From Methanobacteriota archaeon (GTDB taxonomy: Archaea > Thermoplasmatota > Poseidoniia > Poseidoniales > Poseidoniaceae): DNA of 64,000 nt. The DNA lies in assembly GCA_038104845.1 (NCBI GenBank), contig JAYOBJ010000004.1, positions 14,129 to 78,128 of the forward strand, given 5' to 3'. The notes below the pieces were generated by a model that searched no databases, was not told where the DNA came from, and worked only from the letters and a program-made list of their open reading frames with translations. Positions 25,435 to 29,419 of the stretch are shown in pieces. The position numbers and the translations under genes are program-made. The stretch's first letter is position 1. Every line of letters starts with the position of its first letter.

Positions 25435-26346
25435 TTGGTTCATGAAGGTCGGTTCGGTGGACAAATTATGGTCGTGGAACTCCCATTGGATAAGGCTGGA
25501 AACAAAATTGTTCGGATCGGTCACAGCCCAGACCCGGACGATGCGTTCATGTTTCATGCCATGACGACGGGTGCCTTCCCAACACCGGGCTACACCTTTG
25601 TTCACGAACTTCAAGACATTGAGACCTTGAACCACCGTGCCATGAATCAAGATCTCGAGGTGTCGGCCGTGTCCATTCACGCCTACCCCGACATTGCCGA
25701 ACACTATGCGCTCATGAACTGCGGCGCCTCCATGGGAGAGGGTTATGGCCCCATGATCGTGTGCAAACAGGGCGTCACGGAAACCGAAGCCCGTGCAGGC
25801 ACCATCGCCGTTCCCGGGCTCAAAACCAGTGCCTACCTCGGTTTGCGCCTGGCTTGGGGCGACTGCACGGTTGAGGTGGTGCCGTTTGACGAGATCATTC
25901 CACGCATCCTTGACGACACCTACCTTTCGGGTTTGATCATTCACGAAGGTCAACTGACGTATGTGGATCACGACTTGGATGTTCTCATTGACCTTGGGAA
26001 GTGGTGGAACAATTCGACCGACAACTGGCCCATGCCATTGGGCGGCAACGTGGTTCGCCGGGACCTTGGCGATGAAGTGATGGAAGACATCACACGTTAC
26101 ACCAAAATGAGCATCGAACACGCCATCCAATCTCCCGACAAAGCGCTTGAATTTGCCAAAGCCTGGGGGCGTGGCATCGACGACAACACCAACCGTGAAT
26201 TCGTCGGTATGTATGTGAACGACCGCACCATCGACTACCGTGATGAAGGCCGCGCTTCCATTCGAAAGTTCATCAACGACGGCCAAGCCATCGGCATGAT
26301 TCGCCCCGATTTCGATGTTCAAACCATTGACTTCATCGGCGCATGA
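25435..26346 (+). CDS. mqnD: 1,4-dihydroxy-6-naphthoate synthase MqnD
   Basis: IGHSPDPDDAFMFHAM hallmark of the MqnA/MqnD fold; length and C-terminal half fit MqnD. The true start may be the internal ATG (MVVELPL, about 25468). Confidence 0.8.
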   Translation: MVHEGRFGGQIMVVELPLDKAGNKIVRIGHSPDPDDAFMFHAMTTGAFPTPGYTFVHELQDIETLNHRAMNQDLEVSAVSIHAYPDIAEHYALMNCGASMGEGYGPMIVCKQGVTETEARAGTIAVPGLKTSAYLGLRLAWGDCTVEVVPFDEIIPRILDDTYLSGLIIHEGQLTYVDHDLDVLIDLGKWWNNSTDNWPMPLGGNVVRRDLGDEVMEDITRYTKMSIEHAIQSPDKALEFAKAWGRGIDDNTNREFVGMYVNDRTIDYRDEGRASIRKFINDGQAIGMIRPDFDVQTIDFIGA

Positions 26347-26355
26347 GGTGACGAC

Positions 26356-26841
26356 ATGGCCAACACACCGATGCCACAAGTGAGCCAATACGGATCGGTG
26401 GACCCCGCTCCACCCCAGCCGAATGGCGACGTGCAAGCTTGGCGTACTGCGCTGCTCGACGAATCCTCACCCATGTTTCAGCGCATGCGAGCGGTGTTCT
26501 CCCTGCGAAACCAGCGTACGGATGAAGCATGTCTGGCCTTGTGCGACGGATTTGTGGCATCCAGCGCCCTGCTTCGACATGAAATTGCGTACGTCCTCGG
26601 TCAAATGCAAAACAACGTTGCCCTGCCCTCCCTCATCGAGCGGCTTGAGGATGCGGACGAACACGTGATGGTGCGCCATGAAGCAGCTGAAGCCATGGGT
26701 GCCATCGGTGATGTTTCCATCGTTCCTGTGTTGAAAAAGCACGCTCAAGACCCGTTGCCCGAAGTCTCGGAATCGTGCGATGTTGCTCTTGATTTGTTGA
26801 AGTGGGTTGCCAGTGCAGAATTTGAAAACACCGATTGGTGA
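26356..26841 (+). CDS. half-size deoxyhypusine-hydroxylase-like HEAT-repeat protein (two HE motifs)
   Basis: SVDPAPP...ALLDESSPMFQRMRAVFSLRN...ALLRHEIAYVLGQMQ...HVMVRHEAAEAMGAIGD...ESCDVALDLL tracks, from memory, the C-terminal half of eukaryotic DOHH, including both His-Glu iron-ligand motifs. Confidence 0.7.
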   Translation: MANTPMPQVSQYGSVDPAPPQPNGDVQAWRTALLDESSPMFQRMRAVFSLRNQRTDEACLALCDGFVASSALLRHEIAYVLGQMQNNVALPSLIERLEDADEHVMVRHEAAEAMGAIGDVSIVPVLKKHAQDPLPEVSESCDVALDLLKWVASAEFENTDW

Positions 26842-26901: not shown

Positions 26902-27111
26902 ATGCCGCACGAACACGTCCAACTCGCTCAAGCCCCCAACGGTGAACTCGGCCCTCGTTGCCACACCTGCGGCACCCGACTCACGTTTGGAAACGCCATG
27001 GTGGTGGACAAGCACTACATGTGTTGGGACCACTACGTGGAAGCCACCGGTGCCGATACGGTCACCAAGGTGTCGACCGCAGATGAACGCTTTTGGATGA
27101 AGCAGGACTAA
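26902..27111 (+). CDS. small Cys/His zinc-finger protein
   Basis: 69-aa ORF with CHTCG...CWDH. Coding status uncertain. Confidence 0.35.
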   Translation: MPHEHVQLAQAPNGELGPRCHTCGTRLTFGNAMVVDKHYMCWDHYVEATGADTVTKVSTADERFWMKQD

Positions 27112-28364: not shown

Positions 28365-28450
28365 CATTAGACACTGAAACGACGGACCGTGACCTCGGAT
28401 GAGGGAAGGTTCAAGGCTGGCTTGCCCTCCCTCCAAACGAGGTGCGTGAG

Positions 28451-29419
28451 ATGGGGCTCCGTCGTGGCAAGAAATCCAAGAGCGCTGGGAACGACCAACC
28501 GTTGCCACCTGCGCCTCTGCCGATGCCCGGTCAGCTTCCCCCAATGCCCCTTCCTGGAGAAATGCCCGCGCCGTTGCCAGCTGCGCCAGCCCCACCCGCA
28601 GTGACCGCACCGAGTGAACCCCTTCCTCTGCCTGTGGCTCCAATGCCTGAGGCAGCACCATCCTCCCTGTCCGACAAGGTGGAATCATCGGAATACGGGG
28701 CGCTCTGGGCCAAACGCTCTGAAAAGCCGCTGCAGCAGATCTACGGCCACATTGACCGCATCAGCAATCAAGAAGCAGGCTCCCTCCTCGACCGGTACGC
28801 TGACAGGTTTGGTCATTCACTGGACCGTGAAATCATCGTGATGCGTAAGGCATCGCTTGAGGAAAAGCAGGCCGAACTTCGGGAAGCGCCAACGGTTGAA
28901 TTGATCGGCGAAGACGAACCAACAGCCGAACTCACGCCCGCTGAGGAATTGAAGGCCGTGGAGGCCGAACTTCGTCAACTCAAACCGTTGTACCAAGCAG
29001 CCAAAGCCAGCGGGGATGCCGCATCCCTGGCCGAACTCAAGCCTGTTCTTCAGGAATTGATGAATCGGCGAAAGGAGCTGAAGGGTGGTCAAGCAGCCAG
29101 TGCTCCGACCGTTGCTGAAGCCGTCCCCGAAGATGAGATGGGCGCGTTGTTCGAGCGCTTCGTTCACCTCGCCAACGATTTGCTGGGCGATCACCTCCCC
29201 GAAGCCATCGTGAACGAATTCATGAACAGCCCAGGGTTTGAACTGCTGAAGACCGTCCATGCCGCACCGACTGAAACCTCCGACAGTGTGCGTTCCGAAT
29301 TTTACGCCATGGTGGATGACCTGCTCGGGAACATGTCCGAGGCATCCATCAACGCCTTCGTGGCATCGCCAGATTTCGACATCTACCGACAAGTCGGTGA
29401 AGCATACAAAGGAGCGTGA
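28451..29419 (+). CDS. proline-rich / coiled-coil hypothetical protein
   Basis: N-terminal MGLRRGKKSK, a PxxP-rich segment (LPPAPLPMPGQLPPMPLPGEMPAPLP), then a helical region. GTG alternative at 28442. Stop overlaps the next gene. Confidence 0.5.
   Translation: MGLRRGKKSKSAGNDQPLPPAPLPMPGQLPPMPLPGEMPAPLPAAPAPPAVTAPSEPLPLPVAPMPEAAPSSLSDKVESSEYGALWAKRSEKPLQQIYGHIDRISNQEAGSLLDRYADRFGHSLDREIIVMRKASLEEKQAELREAPTVELIGEDEPTAELTPAEELKAVEAELRQLKPLYQAAKASGDAASLAELKPVLQELMNRRKELKGGQAASAPTVAEAVPEDEMGALFERFVHLANDLLGDHLPEAIVNEFMNSPGFELLKTVHAAPTETSDSVRSEFYAMVDDLLGNMSEASINAFVASPDFDIYRQVGEAYKGA

What the first reader, a model, noticed from the sequence alone, without database searches (positions are those of the whole stretch)
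26356..26841. Half-size deoxyhypusine-hydroxylase-like HEAT protein in an archaeon
The 161-aa product matches, from memory, the C-terminal half of eukaryotic DOHH almost block by block (SVDPAPP, ALLDESxPxFxRxRAxFxLRN, LxRHExxYVLGQxQ, MVRHEAxEAxGAIG, ESCxVALD). It has exactly two of the four His-Glu di-iron ligand motifs, so an active site would need a homodimer mirroring the eukaryotic pseudo-dimer. The enzyme that hydroxylates deoxyhypusine on aIF5A in archaea is, to my knowledge, unassigned.
Basis: partly seen in the sequence, partly recalled or inferred. Interest (0 to 1): 0.78.

Follow-up and report, generated by a model that had tools for sequence, protein, structure and literature searches.

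The report
Half-size deoxyhypusine hydroxylase in marine archaea
Marine Group II archaea carry a conserved gene for exactly one half of the eukaryotic enzyme that completes the hypusine modification of translation factor 5A, so two copies probably pair up to form the iron site; the hypusine literature still says archaea have no such enzyme.

Summary
Window 26356-26841 (+) encodes a 161-aa protein of four HEAT hairpins. Its best match by far is human deoxyhypusine hydroxylase (DOHH, PDB 4D4Z): 138 bits to the C-terminal half, 102 bits to the N-terminal half, about 50% identity, and model TM 0.88 at rmsd 1.3 A. Generic HEAT/PBS-lyase proteins score far lower. The two His-Glu pairs (H75-E76, H108-E109) align with human H207-E208/H240-E241 and are invariant in 124 cluster representatives. 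So are the substrate-contact Glu and Gly and the 'SVDPAPP' linker, which here forms an N-terminal tail. The host is a Poseidoniales (Marine Group II) archaeon. The ~160-aa form is found across the order and is under strong purifying selection. Published MGII tables list deoxyhypusine synthase and aIF5A in the same genomes. My best reading is a homodimeric di-iron aIF5A deoxyhypusine hydroxylase; the dimer and the activity are inferred, because my only dimer model was inconclusive. One rival needs testing: the gene is translationally coupled to mqnD throughout the order. KEGG-based pipelines already label it DOHH, but no paper found discusses it. It does not explain hypusine in Crenarchaeota. 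I rate it a new variant of a known kind.

The parts
26356..26841 (+). Half-size DOHH-like gene: 161 aa, four HEAT hairpins (helices 26-34, 40-53, 56-67, 71-84, 87-98, 104-117, 120-129, 135-152).
   Evidence: ORF listing. AF2 model pLDDT 90.6, pTM 0.85. Human DOHH 4D4Z is the best sequence and fold match. dN/dS 0.03 against L001.
26374..26415 (+). N-terminal non-helical tail, residues 7-20 (PQVSQYGSVDPAPP). It is homologous to the inter-domain linker of full-length DOHH and is inferred to act as an arm that packs on the partner subunit.
   Evidence: It aligns with human chain residues 144-157. P7, S10, S14 and D16-P19 are invariant. The 'PAP' states occur in 90-100% of eukaryotic C-half linkers and are absent from N-halves. 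Its role is inferred only.
26578..26583 (+). First His-Glu motif, H75-E76. It is equivalent to human H207-E208 in the C-half alignment and H56-E57 in the N-half alignment.
   Evidence: Ungapped alignment offsets, with residue numbering from the review. Conserved 100% in 124 sequences.
26599..26601 (+). G82, equivalent to human G214, a residue implicated in binding the deoxyhypusine side chain.
   Evidence: Invariant. Role in the human enzyme as stated in PMC9117371.
26677..26682 (+). Second His-Glu motif, H108-E109, within MVRHEAAEA. It is equivalent to human H240-E241 and H89-E90.
26347..26351 (+). GGTGA Shine-Dalgarno-like motif in the 9-nt spacer between the mqnD stop (TGA, 26344-26346) and the ATG at 26356.
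   Evidence: Read directly from the sequence. The mqnD-to-DOHH-like gap is -17 to +13 nt in 92 loci. Function as a ribosome-binding site is inferred.
25435..26346 (+). mqnD (1,4-dihydroxy-6-naphthoate synthase family), the co-transcribed upstream partner. It is context for the rival explanation, not shown to be functionally linked.
   Evidence: Pfam VitK2_biosynth, E=8e-62. The adjacency is kept in all 80 genome loci and survives an inversion of the gene pair in type-2 loci.

Best explanation
The gene encodes a half-size homologue of deoxyhypusine hydroxylase. Each 161-aa chain is one four-HEAT-hairpin arm. It carries one iron-binding set (H75, H108, E109) plus the substrate-contact residues E76 and G82. 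Two chains are proposed to associate head-to-head, as the N- and C-terminal arms of eukaryotic DOHH do. That would build a symmetric non-haem di-iron centre that activates O2 and hydroxylates the deoxyhypusine made on aIF5A by deoxyhypusine synthase, giving hypusine. The conserved N-terminal tail, homologous to the eukaryotic inter-arm linker, is proposed to clasp the partner subunit. What is shown: the homology, the fold, motif conservation, purifying selection, order-wide distribution, and co-occurrence with DHS and aIF5A. What is inferred: dimerisation, iron binding, the substrate and the activity.
For: Sequence: human DOHH is the top PDB hit, at 138 bits to the C-half and 102 bits to the N-half in ungapped alignments of 144 and 128 residues. 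An exhaustive phmmer search gives 403 hits at E<1e-30, and the top 150 are almost all ~300-aa proteins with two matched stretches at 42-53% identity. The nearest ones that carry names are eukaryotic DOHH. Fold: the AF2 model has pLDDT 90.6, and Foldseek gives 4D4Z at TM 0.88, rmsd 1.2-1.3 A, 50-51% identity, against <=0.68 for other HEAT proteins. Active site: both HE pairs are invariant in 124 cluster representatives. E76, G82, E109 and the MVRHEAAEA block are invariant. These map onto the human residues that anchor the di-iron centre and bind the deoxyhypusine side chain. In the eukaryotic enzyme each arm of the dyad supplies one Fe site, so a two-HE protein needs two chains. Real gene: dN/dS is 0.03, and protein lengths are 153-177 aa (mode 162) in 120 clusters. 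Pathway: DHS is in 97-99% and this gene in 75-78% of MGIIa/MGIIb genomes. One MAG has DHS, aIF5A and this gene, with transcripts detected for all three. Oxygen: cytochrome c oxidase genes are MGII core functions. Single copy: there is no second copy in the window, one pangenome cluster carries the DOHH label, and only one HEAT/COG1413 gene appears in the stored part of the MAG annotation.
Against: No dimer evidence was obtained. The head-to-tail tandem model had pLDDT 62 and matched 4D4Z only at TM 0.44-0.47, rmsd 11.6 A. No measurement shows that MGII aIF5A carries hypusine rather than deoxyhypusine. aIF5A is absent from Tully's MGII core table, although other initiation factors are listed. 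The gene is translationally coupled to mqnD, not to a translation gene, in all 92 loci examined, and the pair stays together through an inversion. Archaea in which hypusine was measured (Sulfolobus and others) are reported to lack any DOHH orthologue, so hydroxylation in archaea does not generally need this protein.
Confidence: 0.62

Rival explanations
1. It is a DOHH-derived di-iron oxygenase that acts on a different substrate connected with menaquinone (futalosine pathway) metabolism, for example by hydroxylating a naphthoquinone intermediate or a pathway protein. This would be analogous to the di-iron hydroxylase Coq7 in ubiquinone synthesis.
For: The gene follows mqnC-mqnA-mqnD on the same strand. 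The mqnD stop and this gene's start are -17 to +13 nt apart in 92 loci, often as TAAATG or overlapping. In type-2 loci the mqnD/DOHH-like pair is inverted as a unit, while its adjacencies to mqnA and to orf69/PriS are broken.
Against: The whole 12-kb region is collinear across the family, so much of the synteny is simply genome conservation. One inversion with two intergenic breakpoints is enough to explain the type-2 arrangement. No step of the futalosine pathway is known to need an oxygenase (established pathway knowledge). The only cultured-archaeon match on record (the eggNOG seed, Nitrosopumilus Nmar_1251) is a weak 65 bits, though I did not check which cultured archaea use the futalosine pathway. 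The residues that bind the deoxyhypusine side chain in human DOHH are invariant here, and overall identity to the eukaryotic enzyme is about 50%. That would be unexpected after a change of substrate.
Confidence: 0.12
2. It is a true deoxyhypusine hydroxylase subunit, but it works as a heterodimer with a second, divergent HEAT protein encoded elsewhere, or as a higher oligomer, rather than as a symmetric homodimer.
For: The homodimer was not demonstrated. A paralogue at 30-40% identity would fall below the listed rows of my protein searches. The protein carries a mosaic of N-half-like and C-half-like states.
Against: There is no second copy in the 64-kb window. All 80 genome loci are the same syntenic locus. 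Only one pangenome cluster carries the DOHH label. Only one HEAT/COG1413 gene appears in the stored part of a MAG annotation.
Confidence: 0.1
3. It is a non-catalytic HEAT/PBS-lyase-type scaffold protein whose resemblance to DOHH reflects shared repeat consensus only.
For: Pfam and NCBIfam recognise only generic HEAT_PBS/HEAT_2 repeats and weak CpcE/NblB similarity. NCBI and Prokka name it a HEAT repeat protein.
Against: DOHH outscores every generic HEAT protein by a wide margin per domain. The HE pairs replace the usual 'xA' of the repeat consensus, as seen in the alphaRep alignments, and they are invariant. The non-repeat linker motif SVDPAPP is shared with DOHH. An archaeon without phycobilisomes has no use for a bilin lyase (inference).
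Confidence: 0.04
4. It is an artefact: a eukaryotic DOHH fragment mis-assembled or mis-binned into archaeal contigs, or a decaying pseudogene.
For: Its closest non-MGII relatives are eukaryotic. Two related loci sit in MAGs labelled as bacteria.
Against: The same gene sits in the same archaeal gene order in 80 genome loci, including a 2.06-Mb MG-II chromosome, and in 27 independent metagenome contigs. It is an intact ORF of constant length with dN/dS 0.03. The 'bacterial' loci carry the same archaeal synteny, so it is those contigs that are mis-binned.
Confidence: 0.01

Closest known systems
Eukaryotic deoxyhypusine hydroxylase (human DOHH, yeast Lia1; EC 1.14.99.29; KEGG K06072; PDB 4D4Z)
   Same: Same HEAT-hairpin fold (TM 0.88, rmsd 1.3 A) at about 50% identity. 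The same His-Glu motifs at the same 33-residue spacing. The same substrate-contact Glu and Gly. The same MVRHEAAEA and ESCxVALD blocks. The same SVDPAPP segment. It co-occurs with DHS and IF5A.
   Different: It has one arm of four HEAT repeats (161 aa) instead of a 4+4 dyad in one ~300-aa chain, and two HE motifs per chain instead of four. The linker is a free N-terminal tail. The host is archaeal, and the gene is co-transcribed with mqnD. Activity, iron content and oligomeric state are untested.
PBS-lyase HEAT-like repeat proteins (Pfam PF03130: CpcE/CpcF, NblB; also MTH187 and YibA) and the designed alphaRep proteins derived from their consensus
   Same: The same repeat type (HEAT_PBS 50 bits, HEAT_2 48 bits) and a similar size to some archaeal members. 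Structural TM is 0.61-0.68 for the full-length matches.
   Different: These proteins have no His-Glu metal ligands and no SVDPAPP segment. Scores to the curated lyase models are far below cut-off (22.6 against 330; 19.7 against 300). Their PDB E-values are 1e-5 to 0.1, against 1e-70 for DOHH.
Di-iron hydroxylases of quinone biosynthesis (for example Coq7), relevant only to the rival reading
   Same: They carry out O2-dependent di-iron hydroxylation, and the genes can sit with quinone-biosynthesis genes. This comparison rests on established knowledge, not on a test here.
   Different: The fold is unrelated (a ferritin-like four-helix bundle, not HEAT repeats). No sequence similarity was seen in any search here.

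Membership tests
Deoxyhypusine hydroxylase (DOHH/Lia1, K06072) | All-alpha HEAT-hairpin fold that superposes on DOHH | tested here: met
   AF2 pLDDT 90.6 with 8 helices. Foldseek 4d4z_B: TM 0.88, rmsd 1.3 A over 148 columns.
Deoxyhypusine hydroxylase (DOHH/Lia1, K06072) | Eight HEAT repeats in one chain, arranged as a symmetrical 4+4 dyad | tested here: not met
   The protein is 161 aa with four hairpins only. Lengths are 153-177 aa in 120 clusters. mqnD ends 9 nt upstream, so no missing half is adjacent.
Deoxyhypusine hydroxylase (DOHH/Lia1, K06072) | [quoted passage not shown] | tested here: not met
   There are two per chain (H75-E76, H108-E109), both invariant and aligned with the human motifs. 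Four would be present only in a dimer, which is inferred, not shown.
Deoxyhypusine hydroxylase (DOHH/Lia1, K06072) | Sequence similarity that is specific to DOHH rather than to HEAT repeats in general | tested here: met
   138 and 102 bits per half to 4D4Z, against <=27 bits per domain in the designed-HEAT alignments printed. The top 150 of 1.84 billion representatives are almost all DOHH-sized proteins with two matched stretches.
Deoxyhypusine hydroxylase (DOHH/Lia1, K06072) | Residues that bind the deoxyhypusine side chain (E57/E208, E90/E241, and the Gly seven residues after the first His) | tested here: met
   E76, E109 and G82 are invariant. Their roles in the human enzyme are as given in PMC9117371.
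Deoxyhypusine hydroxylase (DOHH/Lia1, K06072) | Substrate pathway in the same organism (deoxyhypusine synthase and IF5A) | tested here: met
   This comes from published annotation tables, not my own search. DHS is in 153/158 and 91/92 MGII genomes. DHS, aIF5A and this gene are in MAG SIMO Bin 19-2. My own probes for MGII aIF5A failed.
Deoxyhypusine hydroxylase (DOHH/Lia1, K06072) | Fe(II)- and O2-dependent conversion of eIF5A/aIF5A deoxyhypusine to hypusine | not testable with these tools
   This needs recombinant protein and mass spectrometry.
PBS-lyase HEAT-like proteins (CpcE/CpcF/NblB) | Match to the curated lyase or NblB models at their cut-offs | tested here: not met
   CpcE 22.6 bits (cut-off 330), NblB 19.7 bits (cut-off 300), CpeY 14.1 bits (cut-off 600).
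PBS-lyase HEAT-like proteins (CpcE/CpcF/NblB) | HEAT_PBS repeat units | tested here: met
   PF03130 at 50.2 bits (cut-off 20.9). This is the repeat type shared with DOHH, so it does not discriminate between the families.
Futalosine-pathway (Mqn) enzymes | Homology to a known Mqn enzyme | tested here: not met
   Only HEAT families match. The link to the Mqn genes is positional only.

The most novel reading that the evidence does not exclude
The MGII protein is a living example of the pre-fusion architecture of DOHH: a homodimeric four-HEAT di-iron hydroxylase. On this reading the eukaryotic eight-HEAT enzyme arose from such a form by tandem duplication and fusion, with the N-terminal arm of the second copy becoming the inter-domain linker. 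Hypusine hydroxylation would then not be a purely eukaryotic invention. The data are compatible with this. MGII is closer to both halves than the halves are to each other (1.04 and 0.96 against 1.22). It has the shortest branch to the N/C node. It carries both N-only and C-only states. It is nested inside the C-halves in only 26% of bootstrap replicates. An ancient transfer of a C-half from a stem eukaryote is not excluded.
Probability: 0.25. Interest if true: 0.8.

Novelty: new variant of a known kind. Interest (0 to 1): 0.66.

Why it matters
Papers and reviews on hypusine from 2016 to 2021 state that archaea have deoxyhypusine synthase but no DOHH orthologue. That leaves the last step of archaeal hypusination unexplained. 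This family is a clear DOHH homologue in one of the most abundant archaeal groups of the surface ocean. It is labelled DOHH by KEGG-based pipelines, yet none of the papers I could search mentions it. Its half-size form matters for three reasons:
- It gives a simple experimental system, a 161-aa protein, for asking how a di-iron oxygenase site assembles between two HEAT arms.
- It bears on how an oxygenase emerged from a non-enzymatic repeat scaffold, a case discussed for DOHH in PMC9040561.
- It predicts that aerobic MGII archaea make true hypusine, which can be checked in existing marine metaproteomes.

It does not solve the older puzzle of hypusine in Sulfolobus and other Crenarchaeota.

Tried and rejected
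1. Homodimer proxy. A head-to-tail tandem of two copies, folded without an alignment, gave pLDDT 62 and pTM 0.55. It superposed on 4D4Z only at TM 0.44-0.47, rmsd 11.6 A. The model is too weak to count for or against the dimer.
2. Direct search for MGII aIF5A and DHS. A motif scan of the window found nothing. A tblastn search with M. jannaschii aIF5A found nothing significant in the window or loci (one chance-level match, E 0.96). A database search with that protein returned only Methanococcales, Bathyarchaeota and similar lineages in the top 120. The question was settled instead from published tables.
3. 'Tandem half-size genes' in other organisms. About 18 metagenome loci had an N-like and a C-like match 50-95 nt apart, often in different frames. 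The junctions I read carry GTAYGY...CTAAY...YAG intron signals, so these are fungal full-length DOHH genes. I rejected the idea.
4. 'Prokaryotic full-length DOHH'. The two long-contig, single-ORF hits I checked have eukaryotic neighbours (TIM21, Sec8, DWNN), so I rejected this too.
5. A second copy in the window: none.
6. Relatives on viral contigs: none.
7. AFDB50 fold search, for organism-labelled relatives: the library was unavailable.
8. The primary DOHH papers (PMC1324997, PMC1868894) are not held. Residue roles were taken from the 2021 review.
9. The first tree script timed out.
10. Fixed N-versus-C differences are too few to polarise the tree. Frequency-based states and a larger NJ analysis left the placement unresolved.
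11. A half-size relative outside MGII could not be ruled out. Ranked searches list only the top 120-150 rows, and those are filled by MGII and by two-domain eukaryotic proteins.

Full report
**Observation.** Window 26356-26841 (+) is an ATG-initiated ORF of 161 aa. There are exactly two His-Glu dipeptides: H75-E76 (nt 26578-26583) and H108-E109 (nt 26677-26682). The gene starts 9 nt after the stop codon of the upstream gene, and a GGTGA motif lies in that spacer.

**Is it DOHH-like or just a HEAT protein?** Pfam and NCBIfam see only generic repeats. HEAT_PBS scores 50 bits and HEAT_2 48 bits, while CpcE scores 22.6 bits against a cut-off of 330. Against all PDB sequences the picture is very different:
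- Human deoxyhypusine hydroxylase (4D4Z) scores E=1.3e-70.
- The query aligns without gaps to the C-terminal half (138 bits, starting in the inter-domain linker) and to the N-terminal half (102 bits).
- The next hits are designed alphaRep proteins, which reach at most 27 bits per domain.

The alignment offsets put H75-E76 on human H207-E208 (or H56-E57) and H108-E109 on H240-E241 (or H89-E90). G82 falls on G214. These are the residues that anchor the di-iron centre and bind the deoxyhypusine side chain in the human enzyme.

An exhaustive phmmer scan of 1.84 billion cluster representatives gave 403 hits at E<1e-30. The best 150 are nearly all ~300-aa proteins with two matched stretches at 42-53% identity. 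The ones that carry names are eukaryotic DOHH.

An AlphaFold2 model built on 52 family members is confident (pLDDT 90.6) and shows eight helices, i.e. four hairpins. Foldseek places 4D4Z first at TM 0.88, rmsd 1.2-1.3 A and 50-51% identity. Other HEAT proteins score TM 0.68 or lower.

**Whose gene is it, and is it really half-size?**
- The 120 best database relatives are 153-177 aa (mode 162). Where named, they come from Poseidonia/Poseidoniales, the Marine Group II archaea. JGI calls several of them 'deoxyhypusine monooxygenase', and NCBI calls them 'HEAT repeat domain-containing protein'.
- Eighty related loci from GTDB species genomes are all Poseidoniales MAGs, including the 2.06-Mb MG-II chromosome CM001443. 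Two of the contigs sit in MAGs labelled bacterial.
- Both HE pairs are invariant in 124 cluster representatives. Sixty-three positions are invariant in a 52-sequence alignment, including E76, G82, E109, the MVRHEAAEA block and the tail residues P7, S10, S14 and D16-P19.
- Against the closest locus, dN/dS is 0.03. In the more distant pairs shown, synonymous sites are saturated.
- There is no second copy in the window.

**Surroundings.** Upstream on the same strand lie a P-type ATPase, a radical-SAM MqnC/MqnE-type gene, mqnA and mqnD. Downstream lie a conserved 69-aa Cys/His protein with no recognisable family and the primase small subunit PriS. The whole block is collinear in the 80 genome loci, so synteny alone says little about function.

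A metagenome scan for the codons of HEAAEALG added 120 loci. Twenty-seven of them carry closed half-size ORFs, and all 27 sit next to MGII-type neighbour genes (mqnD in 26, orf69/PriS in the other). They fall into two arrangements:
- Type 1 (60-69% identity) is collinear with the window.
- Type 2 (51-57% identity, mostly lower GC) has the mqnD/DOHH-like pair inverted as a unit relative to orf69/PriS on one side and mqnA/mqnC on the other.

The mqnD stop and the DOHH-like start are -17 to +13 nt apart in all 92 loci measured. In type 2 the junction is often TAAATG. So the two genes are almost certainly co-transcribed across the order. This is the main support for a rival, quinone-related reading.

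**Pathway context.** Papers from 2016, 2018 and 2021 say that archaea have DHS but no DOHH orthologue. No searchable paper links deoxyhypusine with MGII or reports an archaeal DOHH. The annotation does, however, exist in supplementary tables:
- Tully 2019 lists 'DOHH; deoxyhypusine monooxygenase' as an MGII core function (119/158 and 72/92 genomes). It lists DHS in 153/158 and 91/92 genomes, and cytochrome c oxidase as core. The main text mentions none of the hypusine genes.
- Damashek 2021 annotates one MAG with DHS, a 129-aa aIF5A, and a 160-aa HEAT gene labelled K06072 next to mqnD. Low transcript coverage was detected for all three.
- aIF5A is missing from Tully's core table. I attribute this to MAG incompleteness or thresholds, but I did not resolve it.

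**Mechanism.** In eukaryotic DOHH each arm of the 4+4 dyad supplies one iron site, and the two arms together form the binuclear centre. A protein with one arm and one ligand set therefore needs two chains. A homodimer is the simplest solution:
- Only one pangenome cluster carries the DOHH label.
- Only one HEAT/COG1413 gene appears in the stored part of the MAG annotation.
- All related genome loci are the same locus.

The conserved but non-helical N-terminal tail matches the eukaryotic linker (Y-x-S-V/I-D-P-A-P-P). I infer that it packs on the partner subunit. My one attempt to model the dimer was inconclusive. The dimer, the iron binding and the substrate therefore remain inferences.

**Origin.** The query scores higher with the C-half in 91 of 104 full-length proteins. 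Only the C-half alignment includes the linker. The protein is nevertheless a mosaic. Of 78 MGII-conserved columns:
- 32 are shared with both halves;
- 14 are C-like, three of them in the linker;
- 7 are N-like, including two states found in 0 of 60 C-halves;
- 6 are MGII-specific.

Mean corrected distances on 128 core columns are 1.04 (MGII to N), 0.96 (MGII to C) and 1.22 (N to C). That gives MGII the shortest branch to the N/C node. The best NJ tree puts MGII as sister to 102 of 103 C-halves. Bootstrap replicates scatter: nested in C 26%, with all N 27%, with all C 11%, nested in N 9%.

A recent truncation of a crown-eukaryote gene is therefore unlikely. The data do not separate an ancient transfer from a stem eukaryote from a surviving pre-fusion form.

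In the metagenome sample every other DOHH-like gene I examined closely was eukaryotic: fungal genes with an intron in the linker, or intron-poor genes with eukaryotic neighbours. No viral relatives were found. Half-size relatives outside MGII cannot be excluded, because the ranked searches are saturated by MGII and by eukaryotes.

**Verdict.** This is a half-size DOHH homologue conserved across Marine Group II archaea. It is most likely a homodimeric di-iron aIF5A deoxyhypusine hydroxylase (confidence about 0.6). A quinone-linked oxygenase is the main alternative (about 0.12). It is a new variant of a known enzyme. Automated annotation already labels it, but none of the papers I could search mentions it, and the prediction is directly testable.

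Noticed in passing
window 26902-27111 (+): A 69-aa ORF between the DOHH-like gene and PriS is conserved in 78 of 80 related loci, with near-invariant MPH, LAQAPNGELGPRC, CG and MCW..HY segments (a CxxCG...CxxH pattern). It matches no Pfam, NCBIfam or PDB family. A small metal-binding protein next to a di-iron oxygenase could be an electron donor, but in type-2 loci it is separated from the DOHH-like gene by the inversion.
   Followed up: partly
L085, L129, L147, L163, L178, L185, L186, L190 and others: In the more divergent, mostly lower-GC MGII lineage, the mqnD/DOHH-like pair is inverted as a unit relative to orf69/PriS and mqnA/mqnC. The pair is joined by 0 nt or by overlapping stop/start codons (TAAATG, TAATG).
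   Followed up: yes
L040, L044, L045, L049, L051-L056, L059-L061, L063-L066, L069, L072, L073, L076: About 2.3 kb of extra DNA lies between mqnA and mqnD in a subset of Poseidoniales genomes (mqnA at about -4000 rather than -1750 relative to the DOHH-like start). I did not examine its content.
   Followed up: no
L058 (NZEQ01000006.1) and L080 (CAXRAI010000015.1): Contigs assigned to a 'Verrucomicrobiales bacterium' MAG and a 'Salinimicrobium sp.' MAG carry the full archaeal OPT...PriS...hydrolase gene order. They look like mis-binned Poseidoniales contigs.
   Followed up: partly
L096, L143, L140, L153, L093, L198, L176, L144, L188: Fungal-type DOHH genes in soil metagenomes share an intron placed in the inter-domain linker, just upstream of the SDF(A/T)S(I/V)DPAPP segment. 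That is the boundary between the two duplicated halves.
   Followed up: partly
Tully 2019 Supplementary Data 10: The MGII core-function table lists EIF1, EIF1A, EIF2S1-3, EIF5B and EIF6 but not EIF5A, although DHS is in 97-99% of the genomes and a MAG in another study has aIF5A. Spermidine synthase is also not listed by name.
   Followed up: partly
Damashek 2021 supplementary file 4, gene 936 of SIMO Bin 19-2: The eggNOG seed orthologue for the MAG's DOHH-like gene is Nitrosopumilus Nmar_1251 (65 bits), whereas neighbouring genes hit the MG2 reference proteome. Yet the MG-II chromosome CM001443 encodes the gene (L044, 70% identity). The gene may be uncalled in that reference annotation.
   Followed up: no
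P0125, P0179, P0180, P0184, P0200, P0218, P0259: Very long proteins (1413-6021 aa) with 14-22 matched HEAT stretches score as high as true DOHH by summation. They are a trap for score-based annotation of this family.
   Followed up: no
window 28442-29419 (+): A 325-aa ORF with a Pro/Ala-rich N-terminal third matches no family (Pfam none; NCBIfam only chance-level). It is conserved in position in 65 of 80 loci.
   Followed up: no
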